Shown one piece after another: positions 1,071 through 63,917 of a stretch of DNA of 64,000 nucleotides. Source of the DNA: an uncultured Candidatus Saccharibacteria bacterium (GTDB lineage: Bacteria; Patescibacteriota; Doudnabacteria; UBA920); the NCBI GenBank assembly GCA_964490395.1, contig CAZBAS010000002.1:127291-191290 (forward strand). The letters run 5' to 3'. The position numbers were made by a program, and so were the translations under genes. The number at the start of each line of letters is the position of its first letter. Within the stretch, counting starts at the first letter, position 1. The notes below the pieces were generated by a model, which did not search any database, was not told where the DNA came from, and worked only from the letters and a program-made list of their open reading frames with translations.

Positions 1071-1130
1071 CTGCGTTGCAATGGTCATCTTTGCGACGGT
1101 TGCAAAGATGACCATTGCAACGGGAATTAC
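1071..1130. repeat. Palindromic repeat family A, copy 1: CTGCGTTGCAATGGTCATCTTTGC-GACGGTT-GCAAAGATGACCATTGCAACGGGAATTAC.
   Basis: Perfect 20-bp arms at 1075-1094 and 1102-1121 with a 7-nt loop. Same flanks as the copy at 3038-3097. Confidence 0.85.
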
Positions 1131-3037: not shown

Positions 3038-3097
3038 CTGCGTTGCAATGGTCATCTTTGTAACCGTCGCAAAGATGACCATTGCAACGGGAATTAC
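3038..3097. repeat. Palindromic repeat family A, copy 3, with an inverted loop.
   Basis: Arms GTTGCAATGGTCATCTTTG / CAAAGATGACCATTGCAAC. Loop TAACCGTC is the reverse complement of copy 1's loop GACGGTT. Conserved flanks CTGCG...GGGAATTAC. Confidence 0.85.
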
Positions 3098-5845: not shown

Positions 5846-5851
5846 CCCGTT

Positions 5852-6570
5852 TTAAAAGGGTCACCCTTTTATACACCTAAGCGATGACCGCCAAAGGAGT
5901 ATACTAAAAAGGGTGACCCTTTTATGCGTTATAGAGACAACAAAGAATTCTACGAAGGTAATATCCACCACGCATATAATCGTGGAGTAAATAGGCAAGA
6001 TATATTTCTTACCAGTGCAGACTTCGTTGCTTTTTTACTGCGTTTAGGCATCTTACTCGGCCTTCCAAAGCCGGCGAATTGCAAACTGCATTTAAAAGCC
6101 TTTGACCCCCGTGATTTTGATATCCTGGGCTACTGTTTAATGCCGAATCACTTCCACTTACAAATACGACAAAATGGCGCAACTCCAATTGGAGAACTGG
6201 TGCATAAACTCTGCACTAGCTACGGAATGTACTTTAATAGAAAATATGATAGGCTCGGCGCAGTATGGCAAGACACATTTAAGTCGAAAAACGTAACAGA
6301 CGATCCGTATTTATTAACCCTCTCTGCCTATATTCACAATAACCCCAAGAACCCGGACTCGTATACATATTCAAGCTATCAGGATTACCTTGGTCTGCGC
6401 AGCAGCCAACTGTGTAAACCTGATTTTATCTTATCTATATTCAAAGACAATCGATCATCTTACAAAACATTTGTAGAACAGTGGCGTACAAAAGATGTTT
6501 CGCAAGTTCCTTTTTGGGAATAGTCCACTAAAAAGGGTCACCCTTTTACAGTCAAAGGGTGACCCTTTTT
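5852..6570 (+). mobile_element. RAYT/IS200-like Y1 (HuH) transposase gene flanked by REP-like hairpin doublets.
   Basis: Four ~19-bp hairpins AAAAGGGT(C/G)ACCCTTTT: 5852-5870 and 5906-5924 on the left, 6529-6547 and 6554-6570 on the right. They alternate TCA/TGA loop orientation around the transposase ORF. Confidence 0.65.
5924..6523 (+). CDS. IS200-like / REP-associated tyrosine transposase family protein (COG1943), possibly an inactivated derivative.
   Basis: HuH motif LMPNHFHLQ. Downstream block GAVWQDTF...YIHNNP matches the RAYT WQxxY...NP block, but the conserved Tyr position is Phe (F119). Confidence 0.6.
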   Translation: MRYRDNKEFYEGNIHHAYNRGVNRQDIFLTSADFVAFLLRLGILLGLPKPANCKLHLKAFDPRDFDILGYCLMPNHFHLQIRQNGATPIGELVHKLCTSYGMYFNRKYDRLGAVWQDTFKSKNVTDDPYLLTLSAYIHNNPKNPDSYTYSSYQDYLGLRSSQLCKPDFILSIFKDNRSSYKTFVEQWRTKDVSQVPFWE

Positions 6571-6615
6571 AGTTACGTCCTGCCTAAAACTCTTCATTTT
6601 TGCTATCATACTTCC

Positions 6616-7161: not shown

Positions 7162-7628
7162 CAGATAGCACCAACGAACAGCAAAATAGCCGACCACGAA
7201 TTTTACTTGTAAATAGATGTTTCGTTCTTGATGAAACAAAATCTAAGTTTTTATTAATTAAAAGATCAGCGCAAGACAGCCATAACTCAGGATTATGGGA
7301 AGTTCCTGGCGGAAAACTGGACGAAGGCCAGGACCTTAGTCATGCACTGGAAAGAGAAGTTTTAGAGGAAACAGGATTGCTTGTAGAACCAAGCCAGCGG
7401 CTTATGTATGCAGACAGCCAAATGGCCACTATAAAAAAGTATGAGGGCATGTTGTATTTGGTCCTGTTTGGAATTGGTCAGATCGTTGGCGGCAAACTTC
7501 AATTAAGTGAAGAGCATGAGGATTCGGCGTGGGTTACGTACGATGAAGCACTAGATTACAACCTAAGCCCCGAAGTAAGAAAAGCGCTCATTATCCTACA
7601 GCAACACCTTATACCACAGAGCATATAA
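7158..7628 (+). CDS. NUDIX hydrolase.
   Basis: Nudix box GX5EX7REVLEETG (ALEREVLEETGL). Confidence 0.7.
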   Translation: MTDSTNEQQNSRPRILLVNRCFVLDETKSKFLLIKRSAQDSHNSGLWEVPGGKLDEGQDLSHALEREVLEETGLLVEPSQRLMYADSQMATIKKYEGMLYLVLFGIGQIVGGKLQLSEEHEDSAWVTYDEALDYNLSPEVRKALIILQQHLIPQSI

Positions 7629-9051: not shown

Positions 9052-9056
9052 ATATA

Positions 9057-9095
9057 CAATGGGCACCATTGCGCAGCGCAATGGTGCCCATTGTA
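9057..9095. terminator. Long hairpin ACAATGGGCACCATTGCGC-AGC-GCAATGGTGCCCATTGT, bidirectional-terminator-like.
   Basis: 19-bp perfect stem. Outer stem sequence is shared with the hairpin at 33798-33838. Confidence 0.6.
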
Positions 9096-18117: not shown

Positions 18118-18798
18118 ATGAAAAAGCTGGCTACTGTATTACTCGTCATACTTATACTACTTGGCGCACTCACCAGTATTTTTGCATTGGGCGCAAGCGG
18201 TGACGAACACAACTGGTTCAATACAACGTGGAGACCTCGCTTTGCGCGCGTGGCGAGCCTACGGAGTCTATTCAATCTCCACGATGATGGCGATGCCAAA
18301 AGCGAATATCTGGGCAAGCAAAAACAATACATTGCCATTATAATAAAACCATATGTTGACCCGTGGTTTAGCGATGGTGTGTGGAAAGAGTTTAGCAAAA
18401 AAGTAACCGAAATTACGGGCAAACAAGTAGAGCTTCTCACAGATACAGATATACCCACGTCTAATGACGCACCTGTATACATATACCTTGAAAGCGTTAA
18501 CGAAGAAAATGCACTCACCCTAGGAAAAACATATAATGAGAATGGCATTATTTTGTACAAGCAGGGTTTGGAAAGCTTCAGTAACGGTACTCCGGAAACA
18601 AAAGAAGCCTACATTATGTCTACGCTCCTTCATGAGTTCGGCCATCAGCTAGGCCTAGTCCACAACGAAGAACCCGGCTGCCTCATGAACAGCCATGCCG
18701 AAACCGGCGGCAATGCCAAGCTCGTGACCAGCGAAGTGATAACAAACTTCTGCGCGGAGGAGATTGAACAAATTTCAAAAATCAAAAGTGAATTATGA
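18118..18798 (+). CDS. Secreted metzincin-type zinc metalloprotease.
   Basis: Signal peptide. HEFGHQLGLVH matches the HExxHxxGxxH zinc-binding consensus, with a downstream CLM Met-turn candidate. Confidence 0.6.
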   Translation: MKKLATVLLVILILLGALTSIFALGASGDEHNWFNTTWRPRFARVASLRSLFNLHDDGDAKSEYLGKQKQYIAIIIKPYVDPWFSDGVWKEFSKKVTEITGKQVELLTDTDIPTSNDAPVYIYLESVNEENALTLGKTYNENGIILYKQGLESFSNGTPETKEAYIMSTLLHEFGHQLGLVHNEEPGCLMNSHAETGGNAKLVTSEVITNFCAEEIEQISKIKSEL

Positions 18799-18880
18799 AG
18801 TAAGAATTATGAAGTATGTATTTAAGAACTCTTAAGGCATTTCTACTACGTAATTCATAATTCCTTATTCATAATTCCGC
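18788..18880. repeat. Word-palindrome, family 5 (GAATTATGAAG arms), overlapping the 3' end of the metzincin gene.
   Basis: GTGAATTATGAAGTAAGAATTATGAAGTATG ... CGTAATTCATAATTCCTTATTCATAATTCC. Confidence 0.7.
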
Positions 18881-24030: not shown

Positions 24031-24077
24031 GGCAGAAGGGCATCTTCTGCAGCTGCTGCAGAAGATGCCCTTCTGCC
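24031..24077. repeat. Perfect 47-bp GC-containing palindrome GGCAGAAGGGCATCTTCTGCAGC-T-GCTGCAGAAGATGCCCTTCTGCC.
   Basis: 23-bp arms with no mismatches, between the TrmH start and the stop of the 166-aa gene. Preceded by direct GAATTA(TG/AG)AAT repeats (23947-24010). Confidence 0.85.
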
Positions 24078-27225: not shown

Positions 27226-27309
27226 GGTAATGTCTAATTTCTAATATTCAATTTCTAATGAGCCGGACTGTCTTCCATTAGACATTAGGAATTAGAAATT
27301 AGACATTTC
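27226..27309. repeat. Word-palindrome, family 2 (AATGTCTAATTTCTAAT ... CATTAGACATTAGGAATTAGAAATTAGACATTTC), copy 1.
   Basis: About 80-90% identical to the copies at 28686 and 30411. GCCGGAC-type loop. Confidence 0.8.
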
Positions 27310-28667: not shown

Positions 28668-28685
28668 AAGGTGAGGAAATGTCTA

Positions 28686-28776
28686 ATTTCTAATACCTAA
28701 TTCCTAATGGTCCGGACATTCTTATATCTTTCATTAGACATTAGAAATTAGATATTGGTCATTTCCTACATAGTAT
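28686..28776. repeat. Word-palindrome, family 2, copy 2 (loop CTAATGGTCCGGACATTCTT).
   Basis: About 90% identical to the copy at 30411-30500. Confidence 0.8.
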
Positions 28777-30410: not shown

Positions 30411-30500
30411 CAATGTCTAATTTCTAATATCTAATTCCTAATGGTCCGGACATTCTTTTGTCTTTCATTAGACATTAGGAATTAGAAATTGGACATTTCT
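30411..30500. repeat. Word-palindrome, family 2, copy 3.
   Basis: AATGTCTAATTTCTAATATCTAATTCCTAATGGTCCGGACATTCTTTTGTCTTTCATTAGACATTAGGAATTAGAAATTGGACATTTC. Confidence 0.8.
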
Positions 30501-32287: not shown

Positions 32288-32495
32288 TGCAGAATTATGA
32301 ATTATGAATCAAAATTGCCAATAGCTTGAAAATTCCCCAAAAATAAGTAGGGCCTTGCTTAATTCATGATTCTTGCTTCATGATTCTATCCTAGTATACC
32401 AAACGCGGGCACATTGTAATAGCCCCATAAAAACGCTATAATATAAGGACTTTCATGCATAATTCTGCATTCTTCATTCTAAATTCTGCATTTAT
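32288..32495. repeat. Word-palindrome, family 5 (TAGAATGCAGAATTATGAATTATGAATC ... GCATAATTCTGCATTCTTCATTCTAAATTCTGCAT).
   Basis: Inverted arms at 32288-32330 and 32455-32495. The ~130-bp central region contains AGTATACCA (32393-32401) and TATAAT (32436-32441) and is the divergent promoter region for mreB and the 32496 gene. Confidence 0.7.
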
Positions 32496-33797: not shown

Positions 33798-33838
33798 AAC
33801 AATGGGCACCCCGATATTACATCGGGGTGCCCATTGTT
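33798..33838. terminator. Bidirectional terminator hairpin AACAATGGGCACCCCGAT-ATTAC-ATCGGGGTGCCCATTGTT.
   Basis: 18-bp perfect stem between convergent genes. Outer stem is shared with the hairpin at 9057. Confidence 0.7.
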
Positions 33839-38167: not shown

Positions 38168-38256
38168 GAGCTTGTTAGCTGATTAGCTAGTTAGCTTTTT
38201 AGAAAAACGTTATGGCTTTCGCTAACCAGCTAAAAAGCTAACTAGCTAAAAAGCTG
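38168..38256. repeat. Word-palindrome, family 3 (GAGCTTGTTAGCTGATTAGCTAGTTAGCTTTTTAG ... CTAACCAGCTAAAAAGCTAACTAGCTAAAAAGCTGCTC).
   Basis: Inverted AGCTAA-word arms around a 19-nt loop. Confidence 0.75.
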
Positions 38257-43426: not shown

Positions 43427-43514
43427 AGCTTTTTAGCTTTTTAGCTACTTAGCTTTTTAGCAAGTCAGAAATTATTCCTAACAAGCTAAGTAGCTAACTA
43501 GCTACAAGCTAGGT
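43427..43514. repeat. Word-palindrome, family 3 (AGCTTTTTAGCTTTTTAGCTACTTAGCTTTTTAGCAAG ... CTAACAAGCTAAGTAGCTAACTAGCTACAAGCTAG).
   Basis: Inverted AGCTAA-word arms around the loop TCAGAAATTATTC. Confidence 0.75.
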
Positions 43515-50996: not shown

Positions 50997-50998
50997 GG

Positions 50999-51082
50999 TA
51001 GCTTTTTAGCTTTTTAGCTTTTTAGCTTTTTAGCTTTAGGGCGTTACCTAGAAAGCTAAGAAGCTACAAGCTAACAAGCTAT
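50999..51082. repeat. Word-palindrome, family 3 (four tandem AGCTTTTT words, then CTAGAAAGCTAAGAAGCTACAAGCTAACAAGCT).
   Basis: Inverted AGCTAA-word arms around the loop GCGTTA. Confidence 0.75.
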
Positions 51083-52281: not shown

Positions 52282-52372
52282 GAGCTTCTTAGCTGGTTAG
52301 CTTTTTAGCTTTTTAGAAATTAGAGTGGACCCCTAATTAGCTAACAAGCTAATCAGCTAACTAGCTTTTTAG
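52282..52372. repeat. Word-palindrome, family 3; both ends carry AGCTTTTTAGAAATT.
   Basis: AGCTTCTTAGCTGGTTAGCTTTTTAGCTTTTTAGAAATTAG ... CTAATTAGCTAACAAGCTAATCAGCTAACTAGCTTTTTAGAAATT. Confidence 0.75.
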
Positions 52373-57888: not shown

Positions 57889-57902
57889 AGAAATATAATA
57901 AA

Positions 57903-57991
57903 ATGCCTAATGTCTAATTCTTAATTTCTAATGCGAAGCCTAAAAACATTTGACTCTTGCATTAGAAATTGGATATTAGAAATTAGACATT
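57903..57991. repeat. Word-palindrome, family 2, copy 5.
   Basis: TGCCTAATGTCTAATTCTTAATTTCTAATG...CATTAGAAATTGGATATTAGAAATTAGACATTC. Confidence 0.75.
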
Positions 57992-57995
57992 CTTT

Positions 57996-58646
57996 TTAAA
58001 GCTCTTCCTCTTCGGGCAACAAGCCTGAAGATTCGGTCCGAGGCGCTGGTTCATCACCTTCATTGATAAGCTCCATGCTTGCGCCAGCCTCAGCATGCTC
58101 ACCTTTCTTGATAACGTTTTCAACGGCTGCCCAGGTCGCTTCTTTTCCTTCCGGAAGAATAATAGTTACTTCGTCTCCAGGCTCTGCTTTGAAATACGTA
58201 AGGGACGCAAGCAACACACGGTATGGCTTACCATCTGCCAGCACTCGGAAGTCTGAACGTTCGTCCTGCACCAAAATACCCAAGACTTTTTTCCGATCAA
58301 TAGGGCCAATTTGCTTATATATGAACGACCCATCGTCTGCAATGGTAAGTTTAAGCACGTCACCTTCAACAAGTTTGCTCTTAGAAGCATAGTTGGCAGG
58401 CACTGGATACTGTTTCCCGTCTGGGCCAATCATGTTTTGTCCATCGAACACACCTTCAATAACTTTACCGCCCCCAGTTACGGAAAGCATAGCTGCTTTG
58501 GTCGCTAGGTTTTCAGCTGAAGGAGCACGCAAAGAAACGCCAGCGCCGCCCATAACTTCCCGGAGGAGCTGTTTAGCAGACTGGAGGTTCTTTTCCGCAG
58601 ATTCAATCATCTGACTCAAAAGAGCCAAATTTTCTAACTTATCCAT
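57996..58646 (-). CDS. Hypothetical protein with an N-terminal coiled coil, two small repeated beta modules and an acidic tail.
   Basis: ORF preceded by the extended -10 TGATATACT (58688-58696, minus strand). Internal repeat GDVLKLTIADDGSFIY / GDEVTIILPEGKEATW. Confidence 0.45.
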   Translation of the reverse strand: MDKLENLALLSQMIESAEKNLQSAKQLLREVMGGAGVSLRAPSAENLATKAAMLSVTGGGKVIEGVFDGQNMIGPDGKQYPVPANYASKSKLVEGDVLKLTIADDGSFIYKQIGPIDRKKVLGILVQDERSDFRVLADGKPYRVLLASLTYFKAEPGDEVTIILPEGKEATWAAVENVIKKGEHAEAGASMELINEGDEPAPRTESSGLLPEEEEL

Positions 58647-58734
58647 ATCTTTTTGTTTATGTTTCTAATCTTATGAAACTTAAGAATAGTATATCATAGC
58701 CTCGCGCAATTGCAAACACAAAAGGATCAGAATC

Positions 58735-58815
58735 AAGAATTACGAATTATGAATTAAGTAAACGCCGTCCAACCCGTCGCCACTGTTAGGAGCATAATTC
58801 ATAATTCTTGATTCA
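58735..58815. repeat. Word-palindrome, family 5 (GAATCAAGAATTACGAATTATGAATTAAG ... CATAATTCATAATTCTTGATTCATAATTC).
   Basis: Inverted GAATTATGAAT-word arms. Confidence 0.75.
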
Positions 58816-58824
58816 TAATTCTTC

Positions 58825-63826: not shown

Positions 63827-63915
63827 TGAAATTTCTAATTTCTAATTTCTAATTTCTAATGAGGTATCTAATCATGAGCTTACTAATTAGATATTAGAAA
63901 TTAGATATTGGGCAT
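63827..63915. repeat. Word-palindrome, family 2, copy 6 (four tandem TTTCTAAT words ... TTAGATATTAGAAATTAGATATTGGGCATTC).
   Basis: Inverted TCTAAT-word arms between rpsE and rplO. Confidence 0.75.
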
Positions 63916-63917
63916 TC

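What the first reader, a model, noticed from the sequence alone, without database searches (positions are those of the whole stretch)
5852..6570. RAYT/IS200-like HuH transposase between REP-like hairpin doublets; catalytic tyrosine apparently replaced by phenylalanine
The 199-aa ORF has the HuH motif (NHFHLQ) and the COG1943/RAYT C-terminal block (WQ...F...YIHNNP).

It is flanked on each side by a pair of near-identical 19-bp hairpins, AAAAGGGT(C/G)ACCCTTTT, in alternating loop orientation. That is the REP-doublet (BIME-like) context in which RAYTs are found.

At the position where IS200 (WSRSY) and RAYTs (WQRGY) carry the catalytic Tyr, four residues after the conserved Trp, this protein has WQDTF. 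It may therefore be an inactivated or domesticated derivative, or it may use a nearby Tyr (Y108 or Y129).

The hairpin sequence does not recur elsewhere in the window.
Basis: partly seen in the sequence, partly recalled or inferred. Interest (0 to 1): 0.55.

Follow-up and report, generated by a model that had tools for sequence, protein, structure and literature searches.

The report
Intact RAYT-like nuclease with flanking hairpins
This is an ordinary, apparently functional hairpin-associated tyrosine nuclease gene (RAYT/TIRYT type) from a probable candidate-phyla-radiation bacterium; the claim that it lost its catalytic tyrosine came from looking at the wrong motif.

Summary
The ORF (5924-6523, 199 aa) and four AAAGGGT(C/G)ACCCTTT palindromes, two on each side, are real. 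The palindromes occur nowhere else in the window (0.11 expected by chance).

The "Tyr replaced by Phe" reading is wrong. In Y1 HuH enzymes the nucleophile lies in the Y motif on helix alphaD, not four residues after the Trp. Alignment to E. coli TnpAREP pairs F119 with its native F98 and Y136 (YIHNNP) with the catalytic Y115. Y136 is invariant in 30 homologues. An AlphaFold model (pLDDT 90.5) matches TnpAREP (4er8) best.

The gene is a class-2 TnpA-Y1 (RAYT/TIRYT-like) in a REPtron/TIRtron-like arrangement. All 11 homologue loci examined also carry cognate hairpins on both sides, and the hairpin sequence changes with protein divergence. A related genome has an in-frame deletion remnant of the gene, with hairpins, at the same site, which argues for vertical inheritance and decay.

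Copies away from the gene are few: none in the remaining 63 kb here, and a few doublets in relatives. Similar doublets sit in frame inside housekeeping genes in metagenome contigs.

Verdict: a new member of a known kind, of modest interest.

The parts
5853..5871 (.). Left outer hairpin (hp1), TAAAAGGGTCACCCTTTTA. It starts 8 nt after the stop codon of the upstream glyoxalase gene.
   Evidence: The ssDNA fold is -5.5 kcal/mol, z -3.5.
5907..5923 (.). Left inner hairpin (hp2), AAAAGGGTGACCCTTTT. It ends 1 nt before the ATG. With hp1 it forms an 18-nt perfect inverted repeat separated by 36 nt.
   Evidence: I3. The whole left doublet, 5848-5927, folds at -24.2 kcal/mol, z -8.6.
5924..6523 (+). 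Gene for a 199-aa class-2 Y1 HuH nuclease (RAYT/TIRYT-like).
   Evidence: - ORF.
- Pfam Y1_Tnp, E 4.7e-10.
- 284 homologues.
- AlphaFold2 pLDDT 90.5.
- Foldseek top hit 4er8_A.
6149..6157 (+). HuH motif codons, H76-F77-H78 (predicted metal ligands).
   Evidence: H76 and H78 are invariant in A1. They align with H59/H61 of TnpAREP, whose role is given in PMC3479197.
6266..6280 (+). W115-Q-D-T-F119 block.
   Evidence: F119 is at least 90% conserved in the family, with Y in two members. It aligns with F98 of E. coli TnpAREP (WQPRF).
6329..6346 (+). Y motif, Y136-I-H-N-N140-P141. Y136 is the predicted catalytic nucleophile and N140 a predicted metal ligand.
   Evidence: Y136, I137, H138, N140 and P141 are invariant. 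Y136 aligns with Y115 and N140 with N119 of TnpAREP. The class-2 signature is Y---NP.
6527..6573 (.). Right hairpin doublet (hp3 6531-6547, hp4 6554-6568). The 23-nt arms are 96% complementary with 1 nt between them. It starts 4 nt after the stop codon.
   Evidence: I1. The ssDNA fold is -21.1 kcal/mol, z -9.3. hp1 and hp4 are also terminal inverted repeats of the unit (I6).

Best explanation
Window 5853-6573 is a REPtron/TIRtron-like unit. It consists of a single-copy gene for a catalytically intact class-2 Y1 HuH single-strand-DNA nuclease (RAYT/TIRYT type) bracketed by its cognate hairpins, which are arranged as inverted doublets (REPIN-like).

Shown here:
- The ORF is intact and keeps every family-invariant residue, including H76, H78, Y136 and N140.
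- The predicted fold is closest to E. coli TnpAREP.
- Short G/C-core hairpins flank the gene on both sides in every homologue examined, and their sequence co-varies with the protein.
- A related genome carries a decayed copy at the same chromosomal site.
- Doublets of the same hairpin lie away from any such gene in a related MAG, and in frame inside housekeeping genes in metagenomes.

Inferred by analogy with TnpAREP and IS608 TnpA:
- The protein binds the folded hairpin on single-stranded DNA, for example at a replication fork.
- H76, H78 and N140 hold a divalent metal.
- Y136 attacks a phosphate next to the hairpin, forming a covalent 5'-phosphotyrosine intermediate that is then rejoined.
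- This occasionally copies or moves hairpin doublets, while the gene itself is mostly inherited vertically and is easily lost.
For: Identity and active site:
- Pfam Y1_Tnp is above its gathering score.
- hhalign and hmmsearch alignments to 4er8/TnpAREP pair H76/H78 with H59/H61, W115-Q116 with W94-Q95, F119 with F98, Y136 with Y115, and N140 with N119.
- The roles of those TnpAREP residues are given in PMC3479197.
- The Y---NP signature and the NH[YF]H/WQ motifs of class 2 are in PMC6006769.
- Y136 is invariant and F119 near-invariant across 30 homologues of 42-75% identity.
- The AlphaFold2 model has pLDDT 90.5. The top Foldseek hit is 4er8_A (E 5e-6), followed by the ISDra2 and IS608 TnpA structures.

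Hairpins:
- There are 4 copies against 0.11 expected.
- The other 11 homologue loci have cognate hairpins on both sides. The core is GGGTSACCC, GGGTWACCC, GGGGWCYCC, GGAGGGCGGCCCTCC or GGATWATCC, depending on the lineage.

Vertical inheritance and decay:
- L204 has, directly after the orthologous glyoxalase gene, a 31-codon remnant joining the first 7 codons and roughly the last 21 codons of the gene. It keeps one left hairpin and the right doublet.
- L206 lacks the unit at that site.
- The identical protein is seen in only one genomic context, and there is one copy in the 64 kb.

Dispersal of doublets:
- There are three S-type doublets on three contigs of a Saccharibacteria MAG, with no RAYT within the 8-kb loci fetched.
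- L072 has an extra doublet 2.8 kb from the gene, and L209 has two extra hairpins.
- Doublets lie in frame inside UvrB, TGT, TsaD, SecDF, Dus and ParB, and appear as insertions relative to solved homologues.
Against: - No biochemical data exist for this clade, and no cleavage site or guide sequence can be named.
- The hairpins lack the GT[AG]G foot of canonical REPs.
- Copy number is low: there is no copy outside the gene's flanks in 63 kb of this genome, and none in the 15-20 kb around L070, L074 and L208. Active dissemination in this genome is therefore unproven.
- The source genome was not in the genome collection, so no genome-wide count was possible.
- The NCBIfam REP_Tyr_transpos equivalog cutoff is not reached: 34.8 against 80 bits.
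- Sequence-only alignments to TnpAREP are statistically weak (E 0.78 and 0.0087). They gain weight only together with the fold match and motif conservation.
- The organisms carrying the intragenic doublets in metagenome contigs were not shown to encode this protein family. Only 2 of the 120 loci fetched held a homologue.
Confidence: 0.72

Rival explanations
1. The 720-bp unit is an autonomous IS200/IS605-like insertion sequence. The hairpins are its subterminal ends, and gene plus ends transpose together.
For: - The size and layout resemble IS200: one small tnpA between hairpins.
- hp1 and hp4 are perfect terminal inverted repeats (I6).
- The 73-75% identical homologues sit between entirely different neighbours: photolyase and integrase in L070, and an MmeI gene and an unidentified ORF in L072.
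- The unit is absent from the syntenic site in L206.
- The same variable region holds a genuine IS200-type tnpA in the closest relative.
Against: - The Y motif is Y---NP (class 2), not the Y---Q of IS200 transposases.
- The protein is 199 aa with a conserved C-terminal extension, not the roughly 150-aa core alone.
- There is no second copy in 64 kb.
- The identical protein occurs in one context only across 4 contigs, and P0065 in one context across 24 contigs.
- The nearest relatives are only 73-75% identical. An active IS would be expected to have near-identical copies.
- A species-level-diverged relative has a remnant at the same site, implying long residence.
- Doublets occur without the gene.
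Confidence: 0.12
2. The palindromes are ordinary regulatory or structural elements and are not substrates of the nuclease. They could be bidirectional terminators insulating the gene, an operator, or a hairpin controlling translation start.
For: - A-tract/stem/T-tract palindromes resemble bidirectional terminators.
- hp1 follows the glyoxalase stop codon by 8 nt.
- hp2 abuts the ATG and could occlude initiation.
- The long-hairpin forms are stable.
Against: - The simple terminator scan does not call them.
- The single stems are weak, about -5 kcal/mol.
- The same hairpin type follows this gene family into 11 other loci with unrelated neighbours, and co-varies with the protein.
- Identical doublets occur inside coding sequences, where a terminator would be harmful.
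- No Rfam family matches.
Confidence: 0.08
3. One reading: a domesticated or inactivated derivative in which the catalytic Tyr was replaced by Phe, possibly using Y108 or Y129 instead.
For: W115-Q-D-T-F119 does carry Phe where some IS200-type proteins have Tyr. An example is WSVGY in the IS200-type protein of L203.
Against: - That position is not catalytic. The active E. coli TnpAREP has Phe there (WQPRF, F98), and its nucleophile is Y115 in YIYINP.
- Y136 is invariant in the family.
- The IS200-type protein with WSVGY also has its own YIEWQ Y motif.
- All other invariant residues are retained.
Confidence: 0.03

Closest known systems
E. coli TnpAREP / RAYT and its REPtron (PDB 4er8; Messing 2012, PMC3479197; Ton-Hoang 2012, PMC3333891)
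   Same: - The HuH and Y---NP motifs, the WQ..F block and a C-terminal extension with conserved Ser are shared.
- It is the best structural match.
- The gene is low-copy.
- The gene is flanked on both sides by inverted hairpin pairs (REPIN-like).
   Different: - Identity in the structural alignment is only about 13%.
- The protein scores below the NCBIfam equivalog cutoff.
- The hairpins are short perfect palindromes (7-9 bp stem, 1-3 nt loop) with no GT[AG]G foot and no bulge.
- Dispersed copies are few, rather than hundreds.
- The host is a probable Patescibacteria/CPR bacterium, not a proteobacterium.
TIRYT / TIRtron (Di Nocera 2013, PMC3733652), roughly subclass 2.1 of TnpA-Y1 (Quentin 2018, PMC6006769)
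   Same: - The gene is RAYT-like and bracketed by terminal inverted repeats that can themselves be self-complementary and occur as dimers.
- The repeat families are only moderately abundant or absent.
- The TIR motif GGGGWSAS resembles AGGGTSAC here (7 of 8).
- The protein motifs NH[YF]H and FQ/WQ match.
- The HuH-Y distance of 60 aa falls within the 58-67 aa typical of most subclasses.
   Different: - The protein is 199 aa, against a median of 238 aa.
- No C-terminal HTH/DnaA-like domain is detected.
- The Y motif is YIHNNP, not Y[IV]HLNP.
- Quentin et al. found no REP-like structures next to subclass 2.1 genes. Here they are found at all 12 loci.
Subclass 2.6 TnpA-Y1 (Bertels group 5; Bacteroidetes)
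   Same: - The motifs are NH[LIV]H-like, WQ and YIH[QN]NP, with a conserved-Ser tail.
- The flanking secondary structures are 'atypical', with some copies elsewhere in the genome.
   Different: The HuH-Y distance is 60 aa here, against a median of 82 aa with a 21-aa insertion between alphaC and beta4 in subclass 2.6. The taxon also differs.
IS200/IS605 TnpA (IS608, ISDra2; class 1.1)
   Same: The fold and the HuH/Tyr chemistry are the same, and both recognise hairpins. An IS200-type gene lies in the same variable region of the closest relative.
   Different: Those enzymes have a Y---Q motif and about 150 aa. They are multi-copy with near-identical copies and often have a tnpB partner. None of this is seen here.
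Intragenic REPs and Rickettsia palindromic elements (knowledge; Di Nocera 2013 reports REPs inside replication and repair genes)
   Same: Palindromic doublets related to the flanking hairpins lie in frame inside UvrB, TGT, TsaD and other genes, adding 12-16 residues.
   Different: The repeat family is different. The link to this nuclease clade is by sequence resemblance only. None is in this window.

Membership tests
Y1 HuH transposase superfamily (Pfam PF01797, TnpA-Y1) | Domain match above the curated threshold | tested here: met
   Y1_Tnp scores 40.1 bits against a cutoff of 23, E 4.7e-10. Residues 61-140 match profile positions 37-121 of 121.
Y1 HuH transposase superfamily (Pfam PF01797, TnpA-Y1) | His-hydrophobic-His motif | tested here: met
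   H76-F77-H78. Both His are invariant in 30 homologues and align with H59/H61 of TnpAREP.
Y1 HuH transposase superfamily (Pfam PF01797, TnpA-Y1) | Single catalytic Tyr on helix alphaD (Y motif) | tested here: met
   Y136 is invariant and aligns with the catalytic Y115. The model has a helix at residues 127-138.
Y1 HuH transposase superfamily (Pfam PF01797, TnpA-Y1) | Fold | tested here: met
   The model has pLDDT 90.5. Foldseek hits 1-30 are all Y1 transposases, and the best is 4er8_A with E 5.3e-6 and TM 0.54/0.64.
Class 2 TnpA-Y1 (TnpAREP/RAYT in the broad sense, Quentin 2018) | Y---NP signature | tested here: met
   The motif is Y136-IHN-N140-P141.
Class 2 TnpA-Y1 (TnpAREP/RAYT in the broad sense, Quentin 2018) | Low intragenomic copy number | tested here: inconclusive
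   There is one copy in 64 kb, and the identical protein occurs in a single context. The rest of the genome was not available.
Class 2 TnpA-Y1 (TnpAREP/RAYT in the broad sense, Quentin 2018) | Gene flanked by cognate palindromes in inverted orientation (REPtron) | tested here: met
   Doublets lie on both sides. The same is seen at the other 11 homologue loci.
Canonical RAYT/REP system (Nunvar 2010; E. coli, Pseudomonas) | REP with a 5' GT[AG]G foot | tested here: not met
   The feet read TTTT, ACTA, ACTA and (reverse strand) ACTA before the A-tract. There is no GT[AG]G.
Canonical RAYT/REP system (Nunvar 2010; E. coli, Pseudomonas) | REPs dispersed at high copy number (usually more than 100 per genome) | tested here: not met
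   - There are 0 copies outside the gene's flanks in the window, with 2 mismatches allowed.
- There are 0-2 extra copies in 10-20-kb flanks of relatives.
- There are at least 3 doublets in one related MAG.
- No whole-genome count for this organism was possible.
Canonical RAYT/REP system (Nunvar 2010; E. coli, Pseudomonas) | NCBIfam equivalog NF047646 REP_Tyr_transpos | tested here: not met
   The score is 34.8 bits against a cutoff of 80.
Canonical RAYT/REP system (Nunvar 2010; E. coli, Pseudomonas) | Cleavage and rejoining of REP single-stranded DNA | not testable with these tools
   This needs a biochemical assay.
TIRYT/TIRtron (Di Nocera 2013), subclass 2.1 | Gene bracketed by terminal inverted repeats carrying GGGGWSAS | tested here: inconclusive
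   TIRs are present: 5854-5869 and 6554-6569 are 100% complementary. The core AGGGTSAC matches 7 of 8 positions of the motif.
TIRYT/TIRtron (Di Nocera 2013), subclass 2.1 | Long protein (median 238 aa) with a C-terminal HTH/DnaA-like domain, and Y[IV]HLNP | tested here: not met
   The protein is 199 aa with no second Pfam domain, and the motif is YIHNNP.
IS200/IS605 insertion sequence (class 1.1) | Y---Q motif in a core-only protein of about 150 aa | tested here: not met
   The motif is YIHNNP and the protein is 199 aa. L203 provides a contrasting genuine example with YIEWQ and 142 aa.
IS200/IS605 insertion sequence (class 1.1) | Several near-identical copies per genome | tested here: inconclusive
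   No second copy was seen in 64 kb or among contigs carrying the identical protein. The whole genome was not available.

The most novel reading that the evidence does not exclude
A clade of short RAYT/TIRYT-like nucleases, widespread in candidate-phyla-radiation bacteria, co-evolves with a minimal hairpin (core GGGT-S/W-ACCC). Inverted doublets of this hairpin behave as low-copy REPIN-like mobile elements. These can land in frame inside essential housekeeping genes (UvrB, TGT, TsaD, SecDF, Dus, ParB), adding KG[DNHY]P.. or RVTL.. peptides. No paper in the held library links RAYT/TnpAREP with these phyla.
Probability: 0.35. Interest if true: 0.5.

Novelty: new member of a known kind. Interest (0 to 1): 0.3.

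Why it matters
The feature that made this finding look unusual, a Y1 enzyme without its tyrosine, does not exist. The catalytic Tyr of IS200-family and RAYT proteins lies in the Y---Q or Y---NP motif, not in the W..(Y/F) block. That correction is worth recording, because the same misreading would flag thousands of normal genes.

What remains is a clean, compact example of the nuclease-plus-cognate-hairpin arrangement in a small, probably episymbiotic genome. The protein family is large: 1,732 cluster representatives at E <= 1e-30. Its hairpin is unusually short and well conserved. That could make it a convenient system for testing how these enzymes recognise and move hairpins, which is still unresolved for REPs.

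The in-frame doublets inside housekeeping genes of uncultured bacteria are a separate lead worth a systematic survey.

Tried and rejected
- phmmer of the single protein against PDB sequences found nothing. A family profile and hhalign were needed.
Residues 22-62 and 91-138 agree with the PDB chain printed.
- The genome-collection scan for the 17-mer did not contain the source genome. Most of its 65 hits are single chance matches.
- The metagenome pattern AGGGTNACCCT x2 was too loose. Most of the 120 loci are unrelated tandem arrays (periods 13, 17, 21), and only 2 carry a homologue. I therefore used only the 29 strict doublets.
- I compared the O-antigen ligase of L059 with its orthologues to test for insertion of the doublet. 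The result was inconclusive because the doublet lies in a hypervariable loop. The closest orthologue (82% identity) simply has a different, shorter loop.
- The terminator and promoter scan called none of the hairpins.
- Rfam gave only sub-threshold miRNA-like hits, that is, generic hairpins.
- The viral contig scan found 1 locus, which was not informative.
- The cluster look-up gave no organism names. The taxon (Patescibacteria, probably Saccharibacteria) is therefore inferred from named homologues and the matching MAG.
- I could not assign the protein to one of the 12 published subclasses. Its motifs mix features of 2.1 and 2.6, and the subclass HMMs were not available.
Full report
**1. Observation**

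An ORF at 5924-6523 (+) encodes 199 aa with N75-H-F-H78-LQ, W115-QDT-F119 and Y136-IHNNP141. Four palindromes AAAGGGT(C/G)ACCCTTT start at 5855, 5908, 6532 and 6554, with central bases C, G, C, G. With up to two mismatches allowed nothing else in the 64 kb matches. Chance expectation is 0.11 matches, and none of 100 shuffles reached four.

Each pair is also a long inverted repeat. The left arms are 18 nt, 100% complementary, 36 nt apart. The right arms are 23 nt, 96% complementary, 1 nt apart. As single-stranded DNA the single hairpins are weak, about -5 kcal/mol. The doublets fold into long hairpins of -24 and -21 kcal/mol, with z-scores of -8.6 and -9.3. hp2 ends one base before the ATG, and hp3 starts eight bases after the stop codon.

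**2. The catalytic tyrosine**

The protein matches Pfam Y1_Tnp above threshold: 40.1 bits against 23, through to the end of the profile. An alignment of 30 homologues of 42-75% identity shows that Y136, I137, H138, N140, P141, H76 and H78 are invariant. F119 is at least 90% conserved, and two members have Y there.

A profile of this alignment was matched against PDB sequences, and hhalign was run against E. coli TnpAREP. Both give the same register:
- H76/H78 opposite H59/H61
- W115-Q116 opposite W94-Q95
- F119 opposite F98
- Y136 opposite Y115
- N140 opposite N119

The TnpAREP structure paper names Y115 as the catalytic tyrosine, H59/H61 as the HuH histidines and N119 as a metal ligand from helix alphaD (PMC3479197). 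The published classification of the superfamily lists the 'Y motif' as Y---Q for IS200-type proteins and Y---NP for all class-2 (TnpAREP-like) proteins (PMC6006769).

The sequence alignments alone are statistically weak (E 0.78 and 0.0087), but they are backed by structure. An AlphaFold2 model with mean pLDDT 90.5 finds 4er8_A (TnpAREP bound to a REP hairpin) as its best PDB match. The ISDra2, IS608 and IS200 transposases follow.

The tyrosine is therefore present. An IS200-type protein found in a relative (L203) shows both features side by side: WSVGY and, further on, its real Y motif YIEWQ.

**3. What the unit is**

The family is large. There are 284 hits in the word-indexed search. Sources name some of them 'REP element-mobilizing transposase RayT' or 'putative transposase', and some come from Doudnabacteria and Yanofskybacteria MAGs. 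In the exhaustive search there were 1,732 cluster representatives at E <= 1e-30.

I fetched DNA around 11 further homologues. Every one has short G/C-core palindromes on both sides of the gene, within about 10-150 nt:

| Locus | Identity to the window protein | Flanking hairpins |
|---|---|---|
| L070, L072 | 73-75% | AAAGGGT(A/T)ACCCTTT doublets |
| L074 (Doudnabacteria) | 45% | ACGAGGGTCACCCTCGT, once on each side |
| L077, L078 | 48-53% | GGGTSACCC variants |
| L208 | 47% | AGAGGGGACTCCTCT and CGAGGGGTCCCCTCG |
| L209 (Yanofskybacteria) | 43% | GGAGGGCGGCCCTCC |
| L076 | 49% | AGGATTATCCT |
| L151, L167 | 35-40% | 50-nt doublets around TAGGGTWACCCT |
| L204 | deletion remnant (see below) | one left hairpin and the right doublet |

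The neighbouring genes differ from locus to locus. The hairpins therefore belong with the nuclease gene, and they change as the protein changes. This is the REPtron/TIRtron arrangement described for class-2 Y1 genes.

**4. History of this locus**

Downstream synteny (Ser-hydrolase, NUDIX, MGMT, UDG and so on) is kept in relatives.

In L204 the hydrolase is 86% identical in protein and about 76-80% in DNA. There, the orthologous glyoxalase gene is followed by one hairpin, then a 31-codon ORF, MRYRDNK-VYYKAFVEQWRTKDISQVPFWE, then the right doublet. That ORF is the first seven codons of the gene fused in frame to roughly its last 21 codons.

The gene therefore sat at this site in the common ancestor of two clearly diverged lineages and decayed in one of them. 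L206 (hydrolase 79% identical) has an ordinary terminator-like hairpin there and no trace of the unit. The closest relative (93%) has other DNA upstream, including an IS200-type tnpA.

The identical protein is found on four contigs, all with the same neighbours. There is no second copy in the window. This pattern is long residence, single copy and easy loss. It fits a host-resident RAYT-type gene better than an active insertion sequence.

**5. Are the hairpins a dispersed repeat?**

In this genome I can only say that the other 63 kb hold none. The source genome was not in the species-representative collection.

That scan did show a Saccharibacteria MAG (CAZYMS01) with the same S-type hairpin as doublets (spacing 21-22 nt) on three different contigs. 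No homologue of the nuclease lies within those 8-kb stretches. One doublet lies between convergent genes, one in the N-terminal extension of ParB, and one in a loop of an O-antigen ligase.

L072 has an extra doublet 2.8 kb from its gene. L209 has two extra single hairpins. L070, L074 and L208 have none in 15-20 kb. Copy numbers are thus low, far from the hundreds typical of canonical REPs.

**6. Intragenic doublets (outside the window)**

Most are unrelated tandem arrays, but 29 are strict AAGGGTNACCCTT doublets.

Many of these lie inside long open frames that are real housekeeping genes: UvrB, TGT, two TsaD genes, SecD/F, Dus, RNase H, VanY-like, a NiFe hydrogenase subunit and ParB. They encode KG[DNHY]P...G.P. 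or RVTL...RVTL peptides, depending on the frame.

Against solved homologues they appear as insertions:
- a 14-residue gap in UvrB exactly at SRVTLKEAPRVTL
- a split of the TGT match, with about 30 extra residues
- 16 extra residues in TsaD

One 30-kb contig has three such insertions (L116, L118). REPs inside replication and repair genes have been reported for other repeat families (PMC3733652). This shows that doublets of this design move. I did not show that the organisms concerned encode this nuclease family.

**7. Comparison with known families**

Features that place the protein in class 2 are Y---NP, NHFH, WQ (FQ in most family members), a conserved-Ser tail and low copy number.

It does not reach the NCBIfam equivalog for proteobacterial RAYTs, and its hairpins lack the GT[AG]G foot. 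It is therefore not a canonical RAYT/REP pair.

It shares motifs, and possibly the repeat core, with TIRYTs/subclass 2.1. AGGGTSAC matches 7 of 8 positions of GGGGWSAS. However, it is shorter and has no HTH tail.

It shares YIH[QN]NP and 'atypical structures' with subclass 2.6, but lacks that subclass's longer HuH-Y spacing: 60 aa here against a median of 82.

The 2018 classification does not mention candidate phyla. I found no paper in the held library linking RAYT/TnpAREP with Patescibacteria or Saccharibacteria.

**8. Verdict**

This is a real feature, correctly recognised as a RAYT-like gene between hairpin doublets. The proposed loss of the catalytic tyrosine is a misreading. It is a new member, from an under-described lineage, of a known kind of system. 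The mechanism is inferred by homology only. Interest is modest, at 0.3. The most interesting loose end is the family of in-frame doublets in housekeeping genes of uncultured bacteria.

Noticed in passing
L118 827-863 and 2932-2968; L116 7045-7081; L195 648-683; L090 8984-9017; L171 585-621; L129 3851-3885; L126 1050-1084; L019 5743-5777; L059 3470-3504: Palindromic doublets AAGGGTNACCCTT x2 lie in frame inside housekeeping genes: UvrB, Dus, TGT, TsaD, SecD/F, NiFe hydrogenase, ParB and O-antigen ligase. They add 12-16 residues (KG[DNHY]P... or RVTL...). Relative to solved UvrB, TGT and TsaD structures they are insertions. One 30-kb metagenome contig holds three.
   Followed up: partly
window 27229-27307, 28678-28756, 30412-30497, 57897-57996, 63830-63916; 18790-18877, 58729-58822, 32292-32390; 38177-38255, 43431-43507, 50998-51040, 52297-52350: There are at least 15 intergenic long hairpins, each built from inverted arrays of 7-nt units. 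Three unit types occur: AAT(T/G)TCT, GAATTAT/GAAGTAA and TTAGCTN. The three examined lie between same-strand genes. They are far more abundant in this window than the RAYT hairpin. Their function is unknown; they may be terminators or another repeat family.
   Followed up: partly
window 1074-1122, 2440-2460, 3041-3089; 9055-9095 and 33798-33838; 24031-24077: Other perfect palindromes with 18-24-bp stems recur in the window. CGTTGCAATGGTCATCTTTG occurs at three sites, an ACAATGGGCACC type at two, and GGCAGAAGGGCATCTTCTGC at one.
   Followed up: no
L203 1273-1701 (-), also L200 and L201 89-517 (-): In the closest relative (hydrolase 93% identical), the DNA upstream of the hydrolase holds a 142-aa IS200-type TnpA (DHVH, WSVGY, YIEWQ) instead of the RAYT-like unit. 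The segment between the glyoxalase and hydrolase genes is a variable region: L204 and L206 carry other small genes there.
   Followed up: partly
L204 1867-2025: An in-frame deletion remnant of the RAYT-like gene (31 codons), with one left hairpin and the right doublet, lies at the orthologous site.
   Followed up: yes
L009 1405-1421, L033 4635-4651, L035 6908-6924: An Actinomycetes MAG (GC about 62%) carries a longer palindrome, TTGACAAAAGGGTCACCCTTTTGTCAA, on three contigs. It may be a different repeat or a binding site.
   Followed up: no
alignment A2, columns about 335-380 (P0390, P0396): The same loop of the O-antigen ligase that holds the doublet in L059 is hypervariable. It carries 30-45-residue inserts in two other orthologues, possibly other inserted elements.
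   Followed up: no
L072 7293-7889: The gene call for P0004 (185 aa, GTG start) is probably truncated. An upstream ATG at 7293 restores the conserved N-terminus MLYRDYKQFY, and the left hairpin then lies 12 nt upstream.
   Followed up: partly
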